DNA of 64,000 nt from Candidatus Falkowbacteria bacterium (GTDB lineage Bacteria > Patescibacteriota > Patescibacteriia > CAIXNZ01): assembly GCA_963774955.1 (NCBI GenBank), contig CAVZGV010000004.1:131522-195521 (forward strand), read 5' to 3'. The notes below the pieces were generated by a model. That model did no database searches, was not told the origin of the DNA, and saw only the letters and a program-made list of their open reading frames with translations. Made by a program: the position numbers and the translations under genes. Each line of letters begins with the position of its first letter. Position 1 is the first letter of the stretch. Below, piece by piece: positions 25,801 through 31,885 of this stretch.

Positions 25801-26397
25801 TCATTCAGACGAAAAAAGTTTTTCGTGATACTGCTGGACAACTGATTGAAGCTGGGTGTGAAACCGAATTACTTTTTCCAAATCTTCGTAAATCGGTAGA
25901 AATAAAAATTTTTTAAAGGCTTTACCGATTAGCTCATCAGTGATTTTTTCTTCCTGGCCGCTGGCTTCCAGCTGACGCAACTCACTATGAGCCAAGATGA
26001 TATCTTCACAATCTGCCACAGCTTCCCGCAACAGATTGAGCCGATCCTCGGCAATTTTACCGATATAGCAATCCGGCTGGAAGGCAAGAGGGGAAACTGT
26101 CAGGGTTCGCTCAACTACGGCAATAAATCTGCACCGATTACAATAAGTCAGGGAGACCCATGGTTCAATGCGGGTCTTGAGCTGCTTTTGATTGTGCAAT
26201 GGCACAATTTGCGCGATTTCGCCTCTCAAGTCAACGATGCAAACGAGAACCGCGTCTTCTTTTTTTCGTTCCGGATAAACAAACCAAACCTGACCCGTTT
26301 GAATTTTTTCGATGTTTTTGATTTTCTTCTCCTTGGTTAGGGTTAAATAACCATTTTCGCCCAAACACTTTGCTTCGGCGACTTTCAAAACAGACAA
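25801..26397 (-). CDS. Hypothetical protein
   Basis: 198-aa ORF directly adjacent to the first cassette-array repeat. Confidence 0.4.
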   Translation of the reverse strand: MSVLKVAEAKCLGENGYLTLTKEKKIKNIEKIQTGQVWFVYPERKKEDAVLVCIVDLRGEIAQIVPLHNQKQLKTRIEPWVSLTYCNRCRFIAVVERTLTVSPLAFQPDCYIGKIAEDRLNLLREAVADCEDIILAHSELRQLEASGQEEKITDELIGKAFKKFLFLPIYEDLEKVIRFHTQLQSVVQQYHEKLFSSE

Positions 26398-26467
26398 ATT
26401 TATTATCTACTTTGAAAAAATGGAGGGCGTTTTTGGTTCTGAATCCAAAACATCCCTCCGTTGATTT

Positions 26468-26818
26468 TTATATTTCATAGAAACAAACTTCTTCTACTAT
26501 TTTTAGAAAATCTCCCAGGTCTACACATTCAGGATGAAACGTTAAGTCAATTTTCCTCGGAGATTTACCCATTATATCATATAGACTCCGACTATGATTT
26601 AAGGTTTCCATGATAAACTCTCTGTTTCGAGTAAACAAAATACCTTTTTCTTCGATTTTCTTTTGATCATCTTTCGTGAGTACATCACAAAACAGCCAGA
26701 GTATAACATCTTTTGGTAAGTGAACCATACAACTGCATGACTGTGTTGTCCCAAACTTATCAACGACACCATAACCACCAGCACACAAAACCATCCTTAT
26801 AACCTCTGATTTTTTCAT
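26468..26818 (-). CDS. Cassette ORF 1, hypothetical
   Basis: 116 aa, followed by repeat R1. Confidence 0.45.
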   Translation of the reverse strand: MKKSEVIRMVLCAGGYGVVDKFGTTQSCSCMVHLPKDVILWLFCDVLTKDDQKKIEEKGILFTRNREFIMETLNHSRSLYDIMGKSPRKIDLTFHPECVDLGDFLKIVEEVCFYEI

Positions 26819-26945
26819 CTTTTTCTCCTTTTTTGTTTTGGGGGAAGTTCAAACTCGTTTTTGAAGGCGACCAAGGTTCAGCCTCCAATTTGGAGACCGA
26901 ACCTTTAGTAATAAATTCCGAGTTTTGAAAGAAGTGATAGCTTGG

Positions 26946-27359
26946 CTATCCTTGTGTTTGCTGTTTTTTGGCTCTGAAGGCCTTTATTTTTTCTGCCAGT
27001 TCAATGATGTTATCAGGACTGATTATAAAAACCGGGGTTGGATATCCGCAGTAATCTTCATCGTAGTAAAAAGGACCTTGTATGCCTGCCGCTTCCAGCT
27101 CCTCAATTTCCGCGTCTATCTTTTCTTTGGCCATAACTTCAGCTAAACGCTCCGGGGATAAAACTTCTAACCAGTGATATTCATCATTCCAGGTATCCTT
27201 ATACTTTGGATCATCATTTTGTTTTTTAAAATCTCCAACTGAGATGCGATATTTAAATGAAAATCCGTCATGAGAGCTTATGGTGTGCAATAACTGTTGT
27301 TCGTCGGGCAGATTCGCCAAGGCCTTTTTTGAATCATCGTCATTTTTAATACTAATCAT
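26946..27359 (-). CDS. Cassette ORF 2, hypothetical (paralog of 28405-28824)
   Basis: It shares the block WLEVLSPERLAEV...II/LELAEKIKAFRA with ORF 4. Confidence 0.5.
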   Translation of the reverse strand: MISIKNDDDSKKALANLPDEQQLLHTISSHDGFSFKYRISVGDFKKQNDDPKYKDTWNDEYHWLEVLSPERLAEVMAKEKIDAEIEELEAAGIQGPFYYDEDYCGYPTPVFIISPDNIIELAEKIKAFRAKKQQTQG

Positions 27360-27497
27360 ATTTTCAATCTAGAACCTCCTTGACTTGAAATTTAATGAAC
27401 TTTTCGCCGAAGCCCTGGGCTTCGGCGACTTTCAAAACCTAGAAAATAATTCCAAGCTTTGAAAAAAGCGGGCCAGGGGTGACCCGCGAGTTTTGCC

Positions 27498-28211
27498 CTA
27501 GGATTGATCTTCTTCGAGCAGATATGGCTCAATCTCAGAATCTTCAAGAAGAAAGAAGAATCTGTCCTGGTATCTTATGATAAAGTCTTCAATCCAATTC
27601 CTTATTGAATTGAAATTGATCAGAGCTCCGGGGCGTTTTCGAAGCTCTGCATCAAAGCTTGCCCAGACTTTTGTTATTTCCATTGAGGCTAAATTGCTGG
27701 GAACGGCCTGCAAAAATTCCAGACCAATCAACTGAAACTCCCAGATAGCCCTGGCCTCAAGAAGATTATGAACACAACTAAGATCTTCATAACGGTCTTC
27801 AATACAATGTTCTTCAAGATGGCCTGGGATAAACATCAAGATAAAACTCAAGAAGTCTTTATCCAAGATCTTAAAGAACCTGGTCATGTCATCTTTGTAC
27901 TTATCAGACAATGACTCCATGTTCCAGAGTGCCTTGTGCGCAACTTCCTTAAATTGTTCGCGGTTAATTCTGGAAAGCAAGAACTCCAGATTTAAATCCA
28001 TCACAATCCATTCTCCCAGGAAATAAAGAGCATCACTAACTGCCTGGAGCAACTTAAAGGATTCATCGGCCAGGCCTTCGCTTTTGCAAGGAGCGAACAA
28101 ATTACGTAACTGGGGCAGATTGTTTTCGATGGTTTGACAATCTCTTTCAAAAAAATTAATGCTTTTGTTGAGGTAGGATACGAAGTATTCCAAAGTGACG
28201 TTGTTTTTCAT
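27498..28211 (-). CDS. Cassette ORF 3, hypothetical
   Basis: 237 aa. Confidence 0.45.
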   Translation of the reverse strand: MKNNVTLEYFVSYLNKSINFFERDCQTIENNLPQLRNLFAPCKSEGLADESFKLLQAVSDALYFLGEWIVMDLNLEFLLSRINREQFKEVAHKALWNMESLSDKYKDDMTRFFKILDKDFLSFILMFIPGHLEEHCIEDRYEDLSCVHNLLEARAIWEFQLIGLEFLQAVPSNLASMEITKVWASFDAELRKRPGALINFNSIRNWIEDFIIRYQDRFFFLLEDSEIEPYLLEEDQS

Positions 28212-28404
28212 TAGTATGATCCTTTTGCCTAAAAAGGCTGGCTGGAAACTCTCTTAAAAAGAGATTCTGAAAAGACCGTACAAATTGGTCAAAACTTTTT
28301 CATTTTGTTTATATTAAAAAGAACTTTTTCGCCCAAGCGCTTTGCTTCGGCGACTTTCAAAACCGAGAAAATGATTCCAGGTTTTGAAAGAAAGGATAGC
28401 CAGG

Positions 28405-30369: not shown

Positions 30370-30435
30370 AACCGAGAAAGAATTCCGGGCTTTGAAAGAA
30401 AGGATAGCTGGGCTATCCCTATTCTGATTATAGAA

Positions 30436-31014
30436 TCAACAAGGCGTTTCGGGAGTATTTGGCTGCAAGTATTCAATGAACACCGGACCAAAGGTCCATT
30501 GTTCAATCTGTGCTTCAGCCATCTCCCACAGGAACTCACGTACACTCATGGGATATGATTCCTCAGTCCAATTTACTAATTCGGAACCATAATGATCACG
30601 GCCGCGGATTTCAAAAACTTGATTTAGGTGGTCAAAATTTTGAACCAGGCCGCGCTCGCAATTACCAAAGTAAATCACTGTTTGATTACTGATCAGTTCA
30701 AGATGGTGATCTGGGTTTCGTAAGCTGAAATTCATGCCGAATGACTTAACATATCCCATCATTGGAGCAAAATATCCGGTCATATCATCTGCCAGCTCGC
30801 CCTGGAAAAATTCAATGAATTTTTCCAAAAACGATACCGTGCCGTTTTTCGGGCCATTCAAAGTGGCGCTAACTGGCTGCCCATTATGATCAAAATCAAT
30901 ATCGGCACTGGCCCAATTAGGATCCAAACTGGCAAAATACGTTGACAGTACTTGCCAAGTTTTCCGGGGAAAAGGCCTAAGATGAGAGATCAGTATGAAT
31001 GCTGTAAAGATCAA
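30436..31014 (-). CDS. Cassette ORF 7, hypothetical
   Basis: 192 aa. Confidence 0.45.
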   Translation of the reverse strand: MIFTAFILISHLRPFPRKTWQVLSTYFASLDPNWASADIDFDHNGQPVSATLNGPKNGTVSFLEKFIEFFQGELADDMTGYFAPMMGYVKSFGMNFSLRNPDHHLELISNQTVIYFGNCERGLVQNFDHLNQVFEIRGRDHYGSELVNWTEESYPMSVREFLWEMAEAQIEQWTFGPVFIEYLQPNTPETPC

Positions 31015-31147
31015 TACAAATTTCTCCGTAACGCATTTCTATCCTCCTTCCAAATATTATTTTAACACCAGCTAGCTGATGTTACTTTCAAATCCCAGAA
31101 GTAATTCTGATCTTTGAAAGTGCGGACACCGAAGTGTCCGCTGGGAT

Positions 31148-31514
31148 TTAGGCAATTTGTTTGCGCCTATCCCAGGGCAGTTTGCCCTTTGGAAAGTACT
31201 TCCGCATCTCTTTGAGCCGAATAGCCTCTTTGAGTTGGGAAGCTTTGGCCAGCGACGCTTCATAACAAAGCGCTTGGCTGTCATATCTGCCGCACCAGTC
31301 ACAAACCGGCGCGACTTTGACCTGGCTGCCGCCGTTGGAGACCACCGGCCCGGGAAACAACAGTCAAGTACATTTTCTTGGCTGTCGCCCAAATCTCGCC
31401 GTGGAAATGTCCGCAGTGGCTGCAAACCAGATCTTTGCGGGAATGCTGTAAATCAGGATGCAAAGTCGGCAAGTGGCTATCCCGCAAAAACTCCAGTCTT
31501 TTTTTCCAGCTCAT
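31148..31514 (-). pseudogene. Cassette ORF 8, frameshifted CxxC-containing protein (31299-31514 continuing in frame 31148-31360)
   Basis: MSWKKRLEFLRDSHLP...CSHCGHFHGEIW then a frame switch to ...CDWCGRYDSQALC... Confidence 0.35.
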
Positions 31515-31626
31515 ATGCCTCCTATTTGAGCAGTTAAAAAAGTATAAATTTTAACACCAGCAATGCTGATGTTACCTTCAAAGCCCATAAAAAATTTATA
31601 AGCTTTGAAAGAAAGGGGAAATCCCC

Positions 31627-31746
31627 TTAATCACTATTGTCGTCAAACTCAATTTCCCGTTCTTCGGGGTCATGAAGCGCCCCGCACAGGAAACCTTCGG
31701 TCGTTGATTCTATTACTTCCACTAAGTCGCGTTCTTGTTCGTCCAT
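31627..31746 (-). CDS. Cassette ORF 9, tiny acidic protein (39 aa) with a perfect RBS
   Basis: AAGGAGGG-N6-ATG: MDEQERDLVEVIESTTEGFLCGALHDPEEREIEFDDNSD*. Confidence 0.4.
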   Translation of the reverse strand: MDEQERDLVEVIESTTEGFLCGALHDPEEREIEFDDNSD

Positions 31747-31885
31747 AGGTTGCCCTCCTTCAGGCTTTTTCATTGAAAGAACATCTCACACATGCTTTTT
31801 GCTTACGCGCCTTTCAAAACTTACAAACTAGTTTCCAATCTTTGAAAGAAAGGGTGGGATTCTACCCTAATTTTTTGGTGCAAGC

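What the first reader, a model, noticed from the sequence alone, without database searches (positions are those of the whole stretch)
26354..31868. Integron-like cassette array: ten same-direction small ORFs, each followed by a conserved ~85-bp multi-hairpin repeat, with no integrase in view
Between 26.35 and 31.87 kb every minus-strand ORF (9-10 of them, 39-237 aa) is followed by the same imperfect-palindromic element. On the coding strand the element is a variable GC hairpin that overlaps the stop codon, then an 11-bp inverted repeat TTTCAAAGCYYGG...YTTTGAAAG around an AATTATTT loop, then one of two conserved right arms: tcgccgaagc..gcttgggcgaaaaa, or taacatcag..ctggtgttaaaa.

This layout matches integron gene-cassette arrays and CALINs, where short promoterless ORFs in one orientation are each followed by an attC (VCR-like) site and the attC sites are highly similar to each other, as in sedentary chromosomal integrons. 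Supporting points seen in the sequence:
- The ORFs carry no recognisable housekeeping function.
- ORFs 2 and 4 are paralogs.
- ORFs 5, 6 and 8 look frameshifted.
- GC content varies strongly between cassettes (~30 % up to ~55 %).

Integrons are not a feature normally described for reduced CPR-like genomes. Neither an intI gene nor canonical R'/R'' GTTRRRY cores could be confirmed by eye, so the alternative is a family-specific REP/terminator element reused between unrelated genes.
Basis: partly seen in the sequence, partly recalled or inferred. Interest (0 to 1): 0.85.

Follow-up and report, generated by a model that had tools for sequence, protein, structure and literature searches.

The report
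Hairpin-punctuated orphan-gene array beside Ro60
A Parcubacteria (CPR) genome carries, next to its Ro60 RNA-quality-control gene, a strain-variable row of small orphan genes that are each separated by the same three-hairpin repeat; it looks like an integron but fails every integron test, and its repeat appears to be undescribed.

Summary
Ten full copies, three decayed copies and one more copy upstream of the Ro60 gene occupy every junction of a co-directional array (window about 25.74-34.2 kb, minus strand). No copy occurs elsewhere in the 64 kb.

Each repeat has three parts:
- H1, a variable hairpin that looks like an intrinsic terminator.
- H2, with an invariant base CTTTCAAAG/CTTTGAAAG.
- H3, in two compensatory types, followed by an A-rich tail.

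It folds on the coding strand only: 60 G.U cells against 3 A.C cells, with strong covariation.

It is not an integron. I found no integrase in 64 kb and no R''/R' cores. The repeat forms three separate hairpins, and the conserved part travels with the downstream gene. It is not a genome-wide REP or terminator either: it is confined to this locus in about eight related Parcubacteria assemblies.

Content differs between relatives. A strain 99.8% identical over 8 kb has a different distal array, and the switch lies at the edge of a repeat. Cassette genes are orphan genes under purifying selection.

Best reading (about 0.45): an RNA-level junction and leader module of one long transcription unit, whose copies also serve as portable homology for recombinational cassette exchange. 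An attC-independent hairpin recombination system remains possible (about 0.18).

The parts
34098..34204 (-). Element copy upstream of the Ro60 gene. It has a terminator-like H1 (34178-34204), a diverged H2 (CTTTTTCA..TGAAAAAG) and an H3 (ACGCAGCAGC..GCTGGTGCG).
   Evidence: The covariance model scores it 35.6 bits. Equivalent copies lie upstream of Ro60 in L047, L048, L039 and L058. Terminator scan is.
32395..34074 (-). Ro60/Rsr ortholog (TROVE plus vWA_Ro60 domains), GC 56%. It is the conserved anchor gene of the locus.
   Evidence: Pfam PF05731 at 3e-16 and PF25045 at 8e-13. Homologs of 559 aa, the closest named 'Candidatus Parcubacteria bacterium'. GC.
32162..32360 (-). Highly conserved structured non-coding RNA candidate directly after Ro60 (Y-RNA-like position), with closing stem CCCAC/GUGGG.
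   Evidence: Nearly invariant in four genomes whose Ro60 proteins are only 77-93% identical. No Rfam match even at E<=1.
32076..32146 (-). Terminator-like hairpin (32124-32146) followed by a decayed H2 without H3 (copy R0).
   Evidence: Terminator scan. It is 92% identical to L033 441-513, where it follows a 67-aa ORF instead of the RNA.
31877..32055 (-). ORF-less, GC-rich (58%) module between R0 and R1. It is probably a small structured RNA cassette.
   Evidence: 84% identical to L033 3-183, but in a different order relative to R0. GC.
31769..31872 (-). Element copy R1, with a third H3 variant (GCGCGTAAGC..).
   Evidence: Covariance model 61.2 bits. Fold.
31627..31746 (-). Cassette ORF1: 39 aa, very acidic (pI 4.05).
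   Evidence: Orthologs in L033 (95% aa) and L047 (74% aa), dN/dS 0.06-0.08.
31535..31626 (-). Element copy R2 (H3 type B).
   Evidence: Covariance model 77 bits.
31148..31514 (-). Cassette ORF2, a Cys-containing basic protein. It is frameshifted here by one extra G at 31346 and intact (121 aa) in strain L058.
   Evidence: Ortholog in L047 is 119 aa.
31046..31145 (-). Element copy R3 (type B).
   Evidence: Covariance model 73.2 bits.
30436..31036 (-). Cassette ORF3, about 199 aa. It is frameshifted near the start by one extra T at 30987.
   Evidence: Intact in L058 (199 aa). Ortholog in L039 is 202 aa, E=2e-64.
30321..30420 (-). Element copy R4 (type A, best-scoring copy).
   Evidence: Covariance model 96.4 bits.
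29822..30303 (-). Cassette ORF4, about 160 aa. It is frameshifted by one missing G at 30147.
   Evidence: Intact in L058. L058 also carries a second copy that is 87% identical.
29702..29805 (-). Element copy R5 (H3 variant TCGTCTAAAT..ATTTGGGCGA).
   Evidence: Covariance model 80 bits.
29171..29660 (-). Cassette ORF5, about 162 aa. It is frameshifted by one extra A at 29446.
   Evidence: Intact in L058.
29069..29160 (-). Element copy R6 (type B), followed by a 250-nt ORF-less stretch (28830-29068).
   Evidence: Covariance model 77.6 bits. Sequence.
28405..28824 (-). Cassette ORF6, 139 aa, a paralog of ORF8.
   Evidence: phmmer E=1e-43 against ORF8.
28312..28408 (-). Element copy R7 (type A).
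   Evidence: Covariance model 92.9 bits.
27498..28211 (-). Cassette ORF7, 237 aa, an acidic orphan gene. It lacks 75 nt that are present in L058; the deletion lies between 9-bp direct repeats.
   Evidence: One weak relative among 1.84 billion representatives. Deletion shown.
27387..27490 (-). Element copy R8 (type A, perfectly paired H3). The strain-level recombination break-point lies at its 3' edge, near the ribosome-binding site at about 27376.
   Evidence: Covariance model 76 bits. Window and L058 are 99.8% identical up to here and unrelated after.
26946..27359 (-). Cassette ORF8, 137 aa.
   Evidence: Only 4 relatives among 5.8 billion proteins. The ortholog in L053 sits in a different neighbourhood on both sides.
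26850..26950 (-). Decayed and scrambled element copy R9.
26468..26818 (-). Cassette ORF9, 116 aa, GC 34.5%.
26340..26458 (-). Element copy R10 (type A).
   Evidence: Covariance model 77.2 bits.
25801..26340 (-). Cassette ORF10, about 179 aa. The start codon is uncertain.
25744..25798 (-). Terminal remnant of the element: a decayed H2 plus the right arm of H3 (cTTGGGCGAAAA). It lies upstream of the conserved 85-aa gene.
   Evidence: The homologous remnant in L033 keeps H3 but has lost H2.
25474..25731 (-). Conserved 85-aa gene (MKFKDL...) that marks the distal end of the array in all relatives.

Best explanation
The locus is one long, co-directional, hypervariable gene array that starts with the Ro60 gene and its companion non-coding RNA. 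Every unit has the layout [H2-H3-A-rich tail-ribosome-binding site-ORF or RNA-H1].

**Proposed mechanism.**
- H1 is a leaky intrinsic-terminator-like 3' hairpin that belongs to the upstream unit.
- H2 and H3 are a conserved structured leader that belongs to the downstream unit and acts in the transcript. Candidate roles are to insulate and stabilise each unit's 5' end, to mark a processing site between H1 and H2, or to act with the boxA-like tail to keep RNA polymerase reading through.
- Because the same roughly 65-85-nt leader is repeated at each junction, and is shared by related strains, it also acts as portable homology. General recombination (the genome has recA) between copies, and between arrays of different strains, then swaps, duplicates and deletes cassettes.

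**Shown:** the anatomy, strand-specific folding, covariation, linkage of H2-H3 to the downstream unit, restriction to this locus, strain-level replacement at a repeat edge, and purifying selection on the cassettes.

**Inferred:** that the folded molecule is RNA rather than single-stranded DNA, the exact RNA role, and that exchange uses general rather than site-specific recombination.
For: **Folding on the coding strand.**
- The coding strand folds better than the opposite strand in all 10 copies.
- 96.8% of cells are paired against 85.4% in shuffles, and 11 pairs show double changes.
- G.U pairs fill 60 cells in 12 columns, against 3 cells in 3 columns for A.C, which would be G.U on the other strand.

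**Hairpin, not duplex operator.**
- The H2 loop tolerates 45-nt structured insertions and the H3 loop tolerates about 30 nt, while the stems stay intact. This rules out a fixed-spacing duplex binding site.
- The orthologous H3 copies upstream of Ro60 in window and L047 differ by two compensatory pairs and keep the same non-Watson-Crick position.

**Terminator-like H1.** H1 hairpins score as terminator-like (33 found against 12.8 expected in the region), and their U-tract is the 5' arm of H2.

**Placement.**
- All copies are co-oriented with the genes and mostly lie 28-55 nt from the next start codon.
- A copy precedes the conserved Ro60 gene in five genomes.

**Linkage to the downstream unit.**
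- Window and L053 homology starts at the H2 5' arm and ends after H1.
- ORF2 homology with L047 starts at H2, while the upstream partner differs.
- ORF1 homology with L033 ends in the H2 5' arm.

**Recombination.**
- L058 is 99.8% identical over 8153 nt. It then switches after the R8 tail to different cassettes and to a flank that is only 83% identical.
- ORF1 and ORF2 have dS of 1.1-2.0 against L047, while Ro60 has dS 0.21.
- Copies within a genome are homogenised: all L039 and L048 copies share type B and an identical tail.
- Break-points vary in position. RecA is encoded at 18133-19179.

**Tail motif.** The tail GAAAAA(G)TTCTTT(A/G)A resembles this genome's own rRNA-leader boxA-like site, GAAAAATTTCTTTGACAAC at 41610-41628. 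Comparing a candidate with the same species' rRNA leader is the approach used in PMC7665894.
Against: - There are no expression data. RNA and single-stranded DNA of the same strand cannot be told apart by sequence.
- I found no convincing promoter or processing motif.
- The boxA similarity is weak. Local-alignment z is about 2-3, and the best hit falls on the rRNA-leader site for only 5 of 16 non-independent tails.
- An invariant 9-bp stem base implies a sequence-specific partner that I could not name.
- An RNA leader does not by itself explain how unrelated genes of different GC content each acquired it.
- Some copies are decayed (R0, R9, the terminal remnant), so not every junction is under strong constraint.
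- Restriction to one locus is unusual for a general expression signal.
Confidence: 0.45

Rival explanations
1. An integron-like but attC-independent cassette system. H2 (and/or H3) would be a single-strand DNA hairpin recombination site recognised by a recombinase encoded elsewhere in the genome. Candidates are a Y1 HUH or RAYT-like enzyme, or a Xer-type enzyme. Cassettes would be captured, excised and reordered site-specifically.
For: - The array has one locus, unrelated orphan genes, GC heterogeneity and content that varies between strains.
- The stem base is invariant, while the upper stem and loops vary like the variable terminal structure of attC.
- The palindromes are imperfect, with a conserved non-Watson-Crick position in H3. 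Enzymes that read hairpin DNA use such features.
- Folding is strand-specific. The coding strand is also the G-rich strand, so it would be the lagging-strand template.
- Most homology boundaries fall at the H1|H2 boundary.
- A Y1_Tnp/RAYT-like gene lies 13 kb away at 44579-45250.
Against: - No recombinase lies in or beside the locus in the window (64 kb), L048 (17.7 kb), L055, L057 or L058.
- The Y1-like gene scores only 33.5 bits against a cut-off of 80 for RAYT. It sits next to trmD with an unrelated palindrome of its own.
- Break-points are not fixed. They occur upstream of H1, in H2, at the ribosome-binding site, or as microhomology deletions.
- The strain-level event replaced several cassettes plus the diverged flank, which is typical of homologous replacement.
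- No conserved target tetranucleotide lies 5' of H2.
Confidence: 0.18
2. A Ro60-linked RNA regulon. The H2-H3 leader would be a protein-binding module recognised by Ro60 (or a Ro60/Y-RNA complex). The Ro60 mRNA itself and all array mRNAs would then share one post-transcriptional control.
For: - The array always starts with Ro60 and its conserved RNA, and Ro60 itself carries the leader in five genomes.
- The 5' strand of H3 type A reads GCCGAAG. This is an exact match to GNCGAAN0-1G, the motif proposed to mediate Rsr binding in bacterial YrlA RNAs (PMC4201824).
- That motif sits in a helix with an unpaired base, as in Y RNA stems.
- A more distant relative (L050) has an H1 / TCAAAGG..CCTTTGA / hairpin arrangement upstream of Ro60.
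Against: - The motif is absent from type B, which is the only type in L039 and L048, and from the copies upstream of Ro60. Its central G varies (U in L033, A in L053).
- A 6-base motif in a 25-nt hairpin has about a 1% chance of occurring, and I inspected many features.
- The covariance model finds no copy in Ro60 loci that are 64-67% identical (L049-L052).
Confidence: 0.1
3. A selfish small mobile repeat (REP/BIME- or MITE-like) that inserts after terminator hairpins and has simply accumulated in a gene-poor, recombination-prone region.
For: - The element is a short imperfect palindrome in intergenic positions, right after terminator-like hairpins.
- A RAYT-like gene is present in the window.
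- Decayed copies exist.
Against: - No copy occurs outside the locus in about 90 kb of flanking DNA from six assemblies.
- The species-representative MAG with L033 gave a single pattern match in its whole genome, and the 247-kb contig of L039 matched only at this locus.
- There are no terminal inverted repeats with target-site duplication and no GTAG-type 5' tetranucleotide.
- All copies have one orientation.
- The RAYT-like gene is not flanked by the element.
Confidence: 0.05
4. A true sedentary chromosomal integron or CALIN, with divergent attC sites and an integrase outside the window.
For: Array architecture only.
Against: - No R''/R' cores.
- Three separate hairpins instead of one.
- The conserved part is linked to the downstream ORF.
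- No IntI in 64 kb.
- The first junction, upstream of Ro60, is the same element rather than an attI.
Confidence: 0.03

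Closest known systems
Integron cassette arrays / CALINs (attC sites, e.g. Vibrio cholerae repeats)
   Same: - One locus holds many short, co-oriented, mostly unknown-function ORFs.
- The ORFs are separated by a conserved structured repeat.
- Content differs between relatives and cassette GC is heterogeneous.
- Some cassettes are ORF-less.
- Repeat copies within a genome resemble each other more than copies in other genomes.
   Different: - No IntI and no attI.
- No RYYYAAC/GTTRRRY cores.
- Three independent hairpins rather than one R/L-box hairpin with extrahelical bases.
- The conserved part sits at the 5' end of the unit, not the 3' end.
- Break-points vary in position.
- Exchange looks like homologous replacement.
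REP/BIME elements with RAYT transposases, and other intergenic repeats (BOX, Correia/NEMIS, ERIC)
   Same: - Short imperfect palindromes in intergenic DNA next to gene ends.
- Modular build from several hairpins (compare BOX A-B-C and BIME).
- Possible effects on mRNA stability and termination.
- A RAYT-like gene exists in the genome.
   Different: - Confined to one locus instead of tens to hundreds of dispersed copies.
- One orientation only.
- No GTAG tetranucleotide, terminal inverted repeats or target-site duplications.
- The RAYT-like gene is not flanked by it.
boxB-boxA (nut-like) antitermination leaders of rRNA operons, phage lambda and CRISPR arrays
   Same: - Hairpin(s) are followed by an A-rich spacer and a (G/T)TTCTTT(A/G)A motif.
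- That motif resembles the boxA-like site in this genome's own 16S leader.
- It sits in a long transcription unit that contains non-coding RNA and terminator-like hairpins.
   Different: - It is repeated at every junction rather than once in a leader.
- The similarity is weak and absent or altered in type B copies.
- NusB/NusE binding is untested.
Bacterial Ro60 (Rsr)-Y RNA loci (rsr-yrlA)
   Same: - A Ro60 ortholog is followed on the same strand by a highly conserved structured RNA.
- H3 type A carries the GNCGAAG motif proposed for Rsr binding.
   Different: - To my knowledge, described rsr loci (e.g. PMC4201824) are not followed by hypervariable orphan-gene arrays with repeated leaders. I did not search the literature for this specifically.
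- The RNA here is not detected by Rfam models.
Variable loci exchanged by homologous recombination through conserved flanks or repeats (e.g. capsule-locus switching, pdif modules on Acinetobacter plasmids)
   Same: - Gene modules are bounded by short conserved sequences.
- Whole-segment replacement occurs between strains.
- No dedicated integrase lies in the locus.
   Different: - pdif sites are 28-bp XerC/D sites in alternating orientation. Here the repeats are direct, about 85 nt and hairpin-forming.
- Capsule loci have no internal repeat at every gene junction.

Membership tests
Integron / CALIN | IntI tyrosine recombinase (with attI and Pc) adjacent to the array. Not required for a CALIN. 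| tested here: not met
   Pfam scans of all window ORFs of at least 110 aa found no Phage_integrase or resolvase. None is annotated in L048, L055, L057 or L058. The rest of the genome was not available.
Integron / CALIN | attC core sites R'' (RYYYAAC) and R' (GTTRRRY) at the two ends of each repeat, 50-150 nt apart. | tested here: not met
   0 such pairs on either strand of 25701-32200, against 0.74 expected from shuffles.
Integron / CALIN | A single imperfect hairpin with R and L boxes, an unpaired central spacer and extrahelical bases. | tested here: not met
   Each copy folds into three adjacent independent hairpins, and the ends of the element do not pair. H3 does keep one unpaired or wobble position.
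Integron / CALIN | Score with IntegronFinder's attC covariance model. | not testable with these tools
   The model is not in Rfam or in the tool set. Rfam at E<=1 finds nothing in 25000-36200.
Integron / CALIN | The repeat belongs to the 3' end of the cassette, with crossover at the distal core. | tested here: not met
   Shared homology blocks run from the H2 5' arm through H3, leader and ORF to H1, so the conserved part is 5' of its ORF.
Integron / CALIN | Array of co-oriented, mostly promoterless, unrelated cassettes whose content varies between relatives. | tested here: met
   At least 14 unrelated ORF families. Different content in window, L058, L047, L053, L033, L039 and L048.
REP/BIME with RAYT | Many dispersed copies in intergenic regions genome-wide. 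| tested here: not met
   All copies lie in the Ro60-to-MKFKDL locus, and none in about 90 kb of flanks. There was one pattern match in the whole representative MAG and one locus in a 247-kb contig. The complete source genome was not available.
REP/BIME with RAYT | RAYT gene flanked by the REPs, and a conserved 5' tetranucleotide (GTAG). | tested here: not met
   The Y1-like gene at 44579-45250 scores 33.5 bits against a cut-off of 80 for NF047646 and is flanked by an unrelated palindrome. The 4 nt 5' of H2 vary.
Intrinsic (Rho-independent) terminator | GC-rich hairpin followed directly by a U-tract at a gene end. | tested here: met
   This applies to H1 only. Hairpins are followed by TTTCTTTC or TTTTTTC (sequence). 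H2 and H3 are not followed by U-tracts.
boxA / nut-like antitermination site | Match to the same organism's rRNA-leader boxA, and NusB/NusE binding. | tested here: inconclusive
   The tail GAAAAA(G)TTCTTT(A/G)A compares with the rRNA leader GAAAAATTTCTTTGACAAC. Alignment scores are only 2-3 sd above shuffles. Binding is not testable here.
Known RNA families (Rfam 15) | Covariance-model match. | tested here: not met
   No family matches at gathering score in the window other than rRNA and tRNAs. Nothing relevant appears at E<=1 in 25000-36200.
CRISPR array | Short constant-length spacers between identical 25-40-nt repeats. | tested here: not met
   Units are 236-1212 nt long and encode proteins under purifying selection.

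The most novel reading that the evidence does not exclude
The array is a new kind of gene-cassette platform in CPR bacteria. It would be independent of IntI/attC. A conserved coding-strand hairpin (H2, with H3) would be the junction site at which cassettes are captured and reshuffled by a recombinase encoded elsewhere. The cassettes include the Ro60-Y RNA module and ORF-less RNA modules.
Probability: 0.15. Interest if true: 0.85.

Novelty: new variant of a known kind. Interest (0 to 1): 0.58.

Why it matters
**Gene flux in CPR bacteria.** CPR/Parcubacteria genomes are small and gene-dense, and little is known about how they gain and lose genes. This locus concentrates strain-level gene flux into one place, and a structured repeat marks every junction. 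If the repeat is only an RNA leader, it is a compact, previously undescribed expression module. It would also be a clear example of repeats acting as portable homology for cassette exchange. If it is a recombination site, it would be a cassette system that arose independently of integrons.

**Ro60 biology.** The physical coupling to Ro60 and a very conserved companion RNA gives a testable lead for Ro60 biology in uncultivated bacteria.

**Annotation.** These arrays break short-read assemblies and should not be annotated as integrons.

Tried and rejected
- **First collection pattern.** TTCTTTCAAAN{17,23}TTTGAAAGT was too unspecific: it gave 31 single chance hits in viral contigs. I replaced it with a pattern spanning H2 and H3.
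- **Viral, phage and plasmid origin.** No blastn match in phages or plasmids. The single IMG/VR pattern hit is a chance match at 15 bits.
- **Four-gamete argument for crossovers inside the H2 loop.** I abandoned it. The four right-arm types differ at two adjacent bases, so recurrent mutation explains them.
- **Promoter inside the element.** The type B H3 3' arm plus A-run looks like an extended -10 (TGTTAAAAT or TGTTATAAA) and resembles the rRNA promoter -10 region. Type A and the L039/L048 copies have no such match, so this is not a general explanation.
- **Duplex operator for the neighbouring TrmB-like regulator.** Rejected because half-site spacing varies from 33 to more than 75 nt and the wobble asymmetry is strand-specific.
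- **Function of the cassette proteins.** No hits in Pfam, NCBIfam, PHROGs, PADLOC or PDB sequence searches, and almost none in the large protein collections. I did not attempt structure prediction because there is no alignment depth.
- **Tandem-duplication origin of all cassettes.** Rejected because at least 14 families show no detectable relation.
- **Source contig.** The 455-kb source contig could not be retrieved, so I have no genome-wide copy count for this strain.

Full report

Yes. On the minus strand between 26.34 and 31.87 kb there are ten full copies of an element of about 85 nt. A motif scan finds them there and nowhere else in the 64-kb window. The repeat finder groups them. A covariance model built from 19 copies scores them at 61-96 bits.

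Each copy has four parts:
- H1, a hairpin of variable sequence at or just after the stop codon, followed by a T-rich run.
- H2, with an invariant base (CTTTCAAAG / YTTTGAAAG) and a variable but paired upper stem.
- H3, directly abutting H2. It occurs as type A (TCGCCGAAGC..GCTTGGGCGA), type B (TAACATCAG..CTGGTGTTA) and a few further variants.
- An A-run followed by a short T-rich motif.

- The two 137/139-aa ORFs are paralogs, E=1e-43.
- Several ORFs are frameshifted.
- Cassette GC ranges from 34.5% to 52%, against 40.6% for the window.

**2. The array is larger than reported.**

The model finds a further copy directly upstream of the Ro60 gene: window 34098-34178, with its H1 at 34178-34204. 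The same holds in four related assemblies.

Decayed copies lie in three places:
- After the Ro60-associated RNA (32076-32123).
- At 26850-26950.
- Upstream of the conserved 85-aa gene (25744-25798).

So all 13 junctions from upstream of Ro60 to the 85-aa 'MKFKDL' gene carry the element or a remnant of it. The units include:
- Ro60 (TROVE plus vWA_Ro60).
- A nearly invariant structured RNA right after Ro60, with no Rfam match.
- Two ORF-less modules.
- Ten protein cassettes.

**3. Organism and distribution.**

The closest named relatives of the Ro60 and flank proteins are 'Candidatus Parcubacteria bacterium' MAGs.

Pattern scans of the genome and metagenome collections, and context look-ups, found the element only in a narrow clade. 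In that clade Ro60 is at least about 77% identical, and the element always lies at this locus.

| Locus | Source | What it shows |
|---|---|---|
| L033/L055 | GCA_026395755.1 | One intact copy; Ro60 to MKFKDL spans only 2.6 kb |
| L048 | GCA_026395675.1 | Three copies (one upstream of Ro60, two in the array); defence genes lie downstream |
| L039 | 247-kb metagenome contig | Five copies, including the one upstream of Ro60 |
| L047/L057 | Logan assemblies (run SRR13958299) | Proximal array (L047) and distal flank (L057) of a close relative |
| L041/L046 | Metagenome contigs (Ga0315281) | Short contigs; L046 has four copies in 2 kb |
| L053 | Logan assembly (run SRR23086375) | ORF8 ortholog in a different neighbourhood |
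| L058 | ENA analysis ERZ25039527 | Strain 99.8% identical to the window over 8 kb |

Ro60 loci that are 64-67% identical (L049-L052) lack the element. No copy was found in about 90 kb of flanking DNA outside the locus. Nothing similar exists in the phage, plasmid or IMG/VR collections.

The element is therefore neither a chance pattern nor a genome-wide repeat.

**4. Structure and strand.**

The coding strand folds more stably than its complement in all ten copies.

On 26 copies from eight assemblies:
- 96.8% of cells are paired, against 85.4% in shuffles (0 of 500 shuffles as high).
- 11 of 23 pairs show changes on both sides.
- Sliding the partner column by one collapses pairing to about 55%.

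These copies are related to each other and the alignment was fitted to the model, so the numbers overstate independence. Three further observations are harder to explain away:
- H3 types A and B differ by four compensatory pairs.
- The orthologous H3 copies upstream of Ro60 in window and L047 differ by two compensatory pairs, yet keep a non-Watson-Crick position at the same place. That position is G×G in type A, and U·G in type B and in the L047, L039 and L048 copies upstream of Ro60; the window's own copy there has G×G.
- The H2 and H3 loops accept 30-45-nt structured insertions without disturbing the stems.

Non-canonical pairs are strongly asymmetric. G.U fills 60 cells in 12 columns. A.C, which would be G.U on the other strand, fills 3 cells in 3 columns.

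The functional form is therefore a hairpin made by the coding strand. It is not a duplex operator with fixed half-site spacing. Sequence alone cannot say whether that strand is RNA or transiently single-stranded DNA.

**5. What is the cassette unit?**

Cross-genome homology blocks define it.
- Window against L053: identity begins exactly at the 5' arm of H2 (R8). It runs through H3, tail, ribosome-binding site, ORF8 and H1, then stops. Both neighbours differ.
- ORF2 and its upstream H2/H3 are shared with L047, although the upstream partner differs.
- ORF1 plus its H1 is shared with L033, but the following H2 top and H3 are different.

The unit is thus [H2-H3-leader-ORF-H1]. The conserved part belongs to the downstream gene, which is the opposite of attC geometry.

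Break-points are not always there, however:
- An H1 plus decayed H2 block follows the RNA in the window but follows a 67-aa ORF in L033.
- ORF1 in L033 has no upstream element.
- L053 has a deletion that removes H2-H3 before the flank gene.
- The GGATAGCC..GGCTATCC H1 also occurs after the unrelated ORF3.

**6. Strain-level dynamics.**

L058 is 99.8% identical to the window over 8153 nt (35663-27513). It then diverges right after the tail and ribosome-binding site of R8.
- The window continues with ORF8-ORF9-ORF10.
- L058 continues with a second copy of ORF4 (87% identical), a frameshifted member of another family, and a 50-aa ORF.
- The flanking 85-aa gene is only 83% identical.

This is the signature of replacement of a whole distal segment by homologous recombination, with one crossover at the edge of a repeat.

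Histories are incongruent. Against L047, Ro60 has dS 0.21, while ORF1 and ORF2 have dS 2.0 and 1.1. The window's ORF1 is closer to L033's.

Copies are homogenised within genomes: all L039 and L048 copies are type B with an identical tail.

The four frameshifts in the window are single-base indels that are absent from L058. L058 has a frameshifted cassette of its own. They are either recent decay or consensus errors. All four indels in the 8 kb fall in cassette ORFs, which has a chance of about 0.02 if indels were random.

**7. The cassettes.**

- At least 14 unrelated families.
- Mostly small, acidic and soluble.
- dN/dS of 0.06-0.33, so they are real genes.
- No hits in Pfam, NCBIfam, PHROGs, PADLOC or PDB.
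- Almost no relatives anywhere: 4 for ORF8 among 5.8 billion proteins, and one weak hit for ORF7 among 1.84 billion representatives.

In L048 the array abuts defence and toxin-antitoxin genes: SocA_Panacea, ImmA/IrrE plus HTH, AAA_13 and HEPN_AbiU2.

**8. Integron test.**

- No integrase or resolvase among all window ORFs of at least 110 aa, nor in the related loci.
- No RYYYAAC...GTTRRRY pair.
- Three hairpins instead of one.
- Reversed cassette geometry.
- Variable break-points.

I could not run IntegronFinder's attC model. I therefore do not file this as an integron or CALIN. The resemblance lies in architecture and perhaps in evolutionary role.

**9. Other candidates.**

*REP/RAYT.* A Y1_Tnp/RAYT-like gene exists at 44579-45250. 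It is far below the RAYT cut-off, sits next to trmD, and is flanked by an unrelated palindrome. The element is not dispersed.

*Ro60 binding.* The 5' strand of H3 type A is GCCGAAG. This is an exact GNCGAAN0-1G, the motif proposed for Rsr recognition in YrlA RNAs (PMC4201824). Type B and the copies upstream of Ro60 lack it, so I treat it as a lead only.

*boxA-like antitermination.* The tail resembles the boxA-like site of this genome's 16S leader. The statistical support is weak. Comparing with the same species' rRNA leader follows PMC7665894.

*Internal promoter.* Only some type B copies look like an extended -10.

**10. Verdict.**

This is a real, apparently undescribed, lineage-specific junction element in a hypervariable orphan-gene array anchored on Ro60.

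- Most likely (about 0.45): it acts in the transcript. H1 is a leaky terminator or 3' hairpin, and H2-H3 plus tail is a conserved leader. Its repetition then drives cassette exchange by general recombination.
- Main rival (about 0.18): a dedicated hairpin-specific recombination system. This would be the most novel reading.
- True integron membership is very unlikely (about 0.03).

Noticed in passing
window 32162-32360 (-); also L047 7253-7450, L048 7775-7975, L039 5650-5850 (approximate): A structured RNA candidate of about 200 nt lies directly downstream of Ro60. It is almost invariant across genomes whose Ro60 proteins are only 77-93% identical, and it has the closing stem CCCAC/GUGGG. It is presumably the Y RNA partner, yet no Rfam family (including Y RNA/YrlA-type models) matches at E<=1.
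   Followed up: partly
window 34205-36003 (-): A gene-free stretch of 1.8 kb lies between the TrmB-like regulator and Ro60, with equivalents of 1.2-2.5 kb in most relatives (L039, L047, L048, L050, L052, L055). L049 instead has small called ORFs there. It has strong promoter-like sites (TTGACA-17-TAGAAT at 35930-35902, and another near 34866). Its last roughly 800 nt are conserved with L047, L048 and L039. It is likely one or more long non-coding RNAs. In L052, non-coding modules of about 700 nt are duplicated on both sides of Ro60.
   Followed up: partly
window 44579-45250 (-), palindrome 44535-44575: A Y1 (IS200-like / RAYT-like) HUH transposase homolog sits next to trmD. It scores 26.8 bits on PF01797 and 33.5 bits on NF047646 (cut-off 80). 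A 40-nt imperfect palindrome follows it (ATAGTTGACGGTTGACTG..CTGTCAATAGTCAACTAT) and occurs only once in the window.
   Followed up: partly
L048 9195-11000: A second, unrelated junction repeat occurs in a related array. It has a terminator-like hairpin (CACCCCACCAGATCAGCC..GGTGGGG plus T-run) followed by AAACCTCCTTGG, which looks like the anti-Shine-Dalgarno end of 16S rRNA. It recurs at four junctions around small paralogous ORFs (after the 349-, 68-, 66- and 45-aa ORFs).
   Followed up: no
L048 11689-17740: In this relative the array is followed by a defence/toxin-antitoxin cluster: SocA_Panacea, ImmA/IrrE-like peptidase plus HTH, an 869-aa AAA_13 protein and HEPN_AbiU2. The locus may therefore be a general hotspot for accessory genes.
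   Followed up: no
window 31346, 30987, 30147, 29446: Compared with the 99.8%-identical strain L058, the only four indels in 8 kb are single bases. Each one frameshifts a different consecutive cassette (ORF2-ORF5). This is either very recent parallel inactivation or consensus errors confined to the array.
   Followed up: partly
window 39680-39750 and 39255-39330 (-): Partial duplications lie next to tRNA genes. A 5' half of tRNA-Ile, interrupted by a hairpin, sits just upstream of tRNA-Ile. A repeat of the 3' end of tRNA-Pro (GTCCCACA(T)CCCCGAATATCAAAA) sits about 45 nt downstream of tRNA-Pro. These could be scars of integration or excision at tRNA genes.
   Followed up: no
window 39994-41493 (-) and 39327-39678 (-): The 16S rRNA gene is followed by tRNA-Ile, tRNA-Phe and tRNA-Pro, with no 23S gene in the window, so the rRNA operon is unlinked. 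The leader carries a boxA-like site, GAAAAATTTCTTTGACAAC, at 41610-41628.
   Followed up: partly
window 27513-27530 (-) vs L058 8150-8215: ORF7 in the window lacks 75 nt (25 codons) that are present in L058. The missing segment is bounded by the 9-bp direct repeat CTGCTCGAA, which points to a slippage or microhomology deletion.
   Followed up: yes
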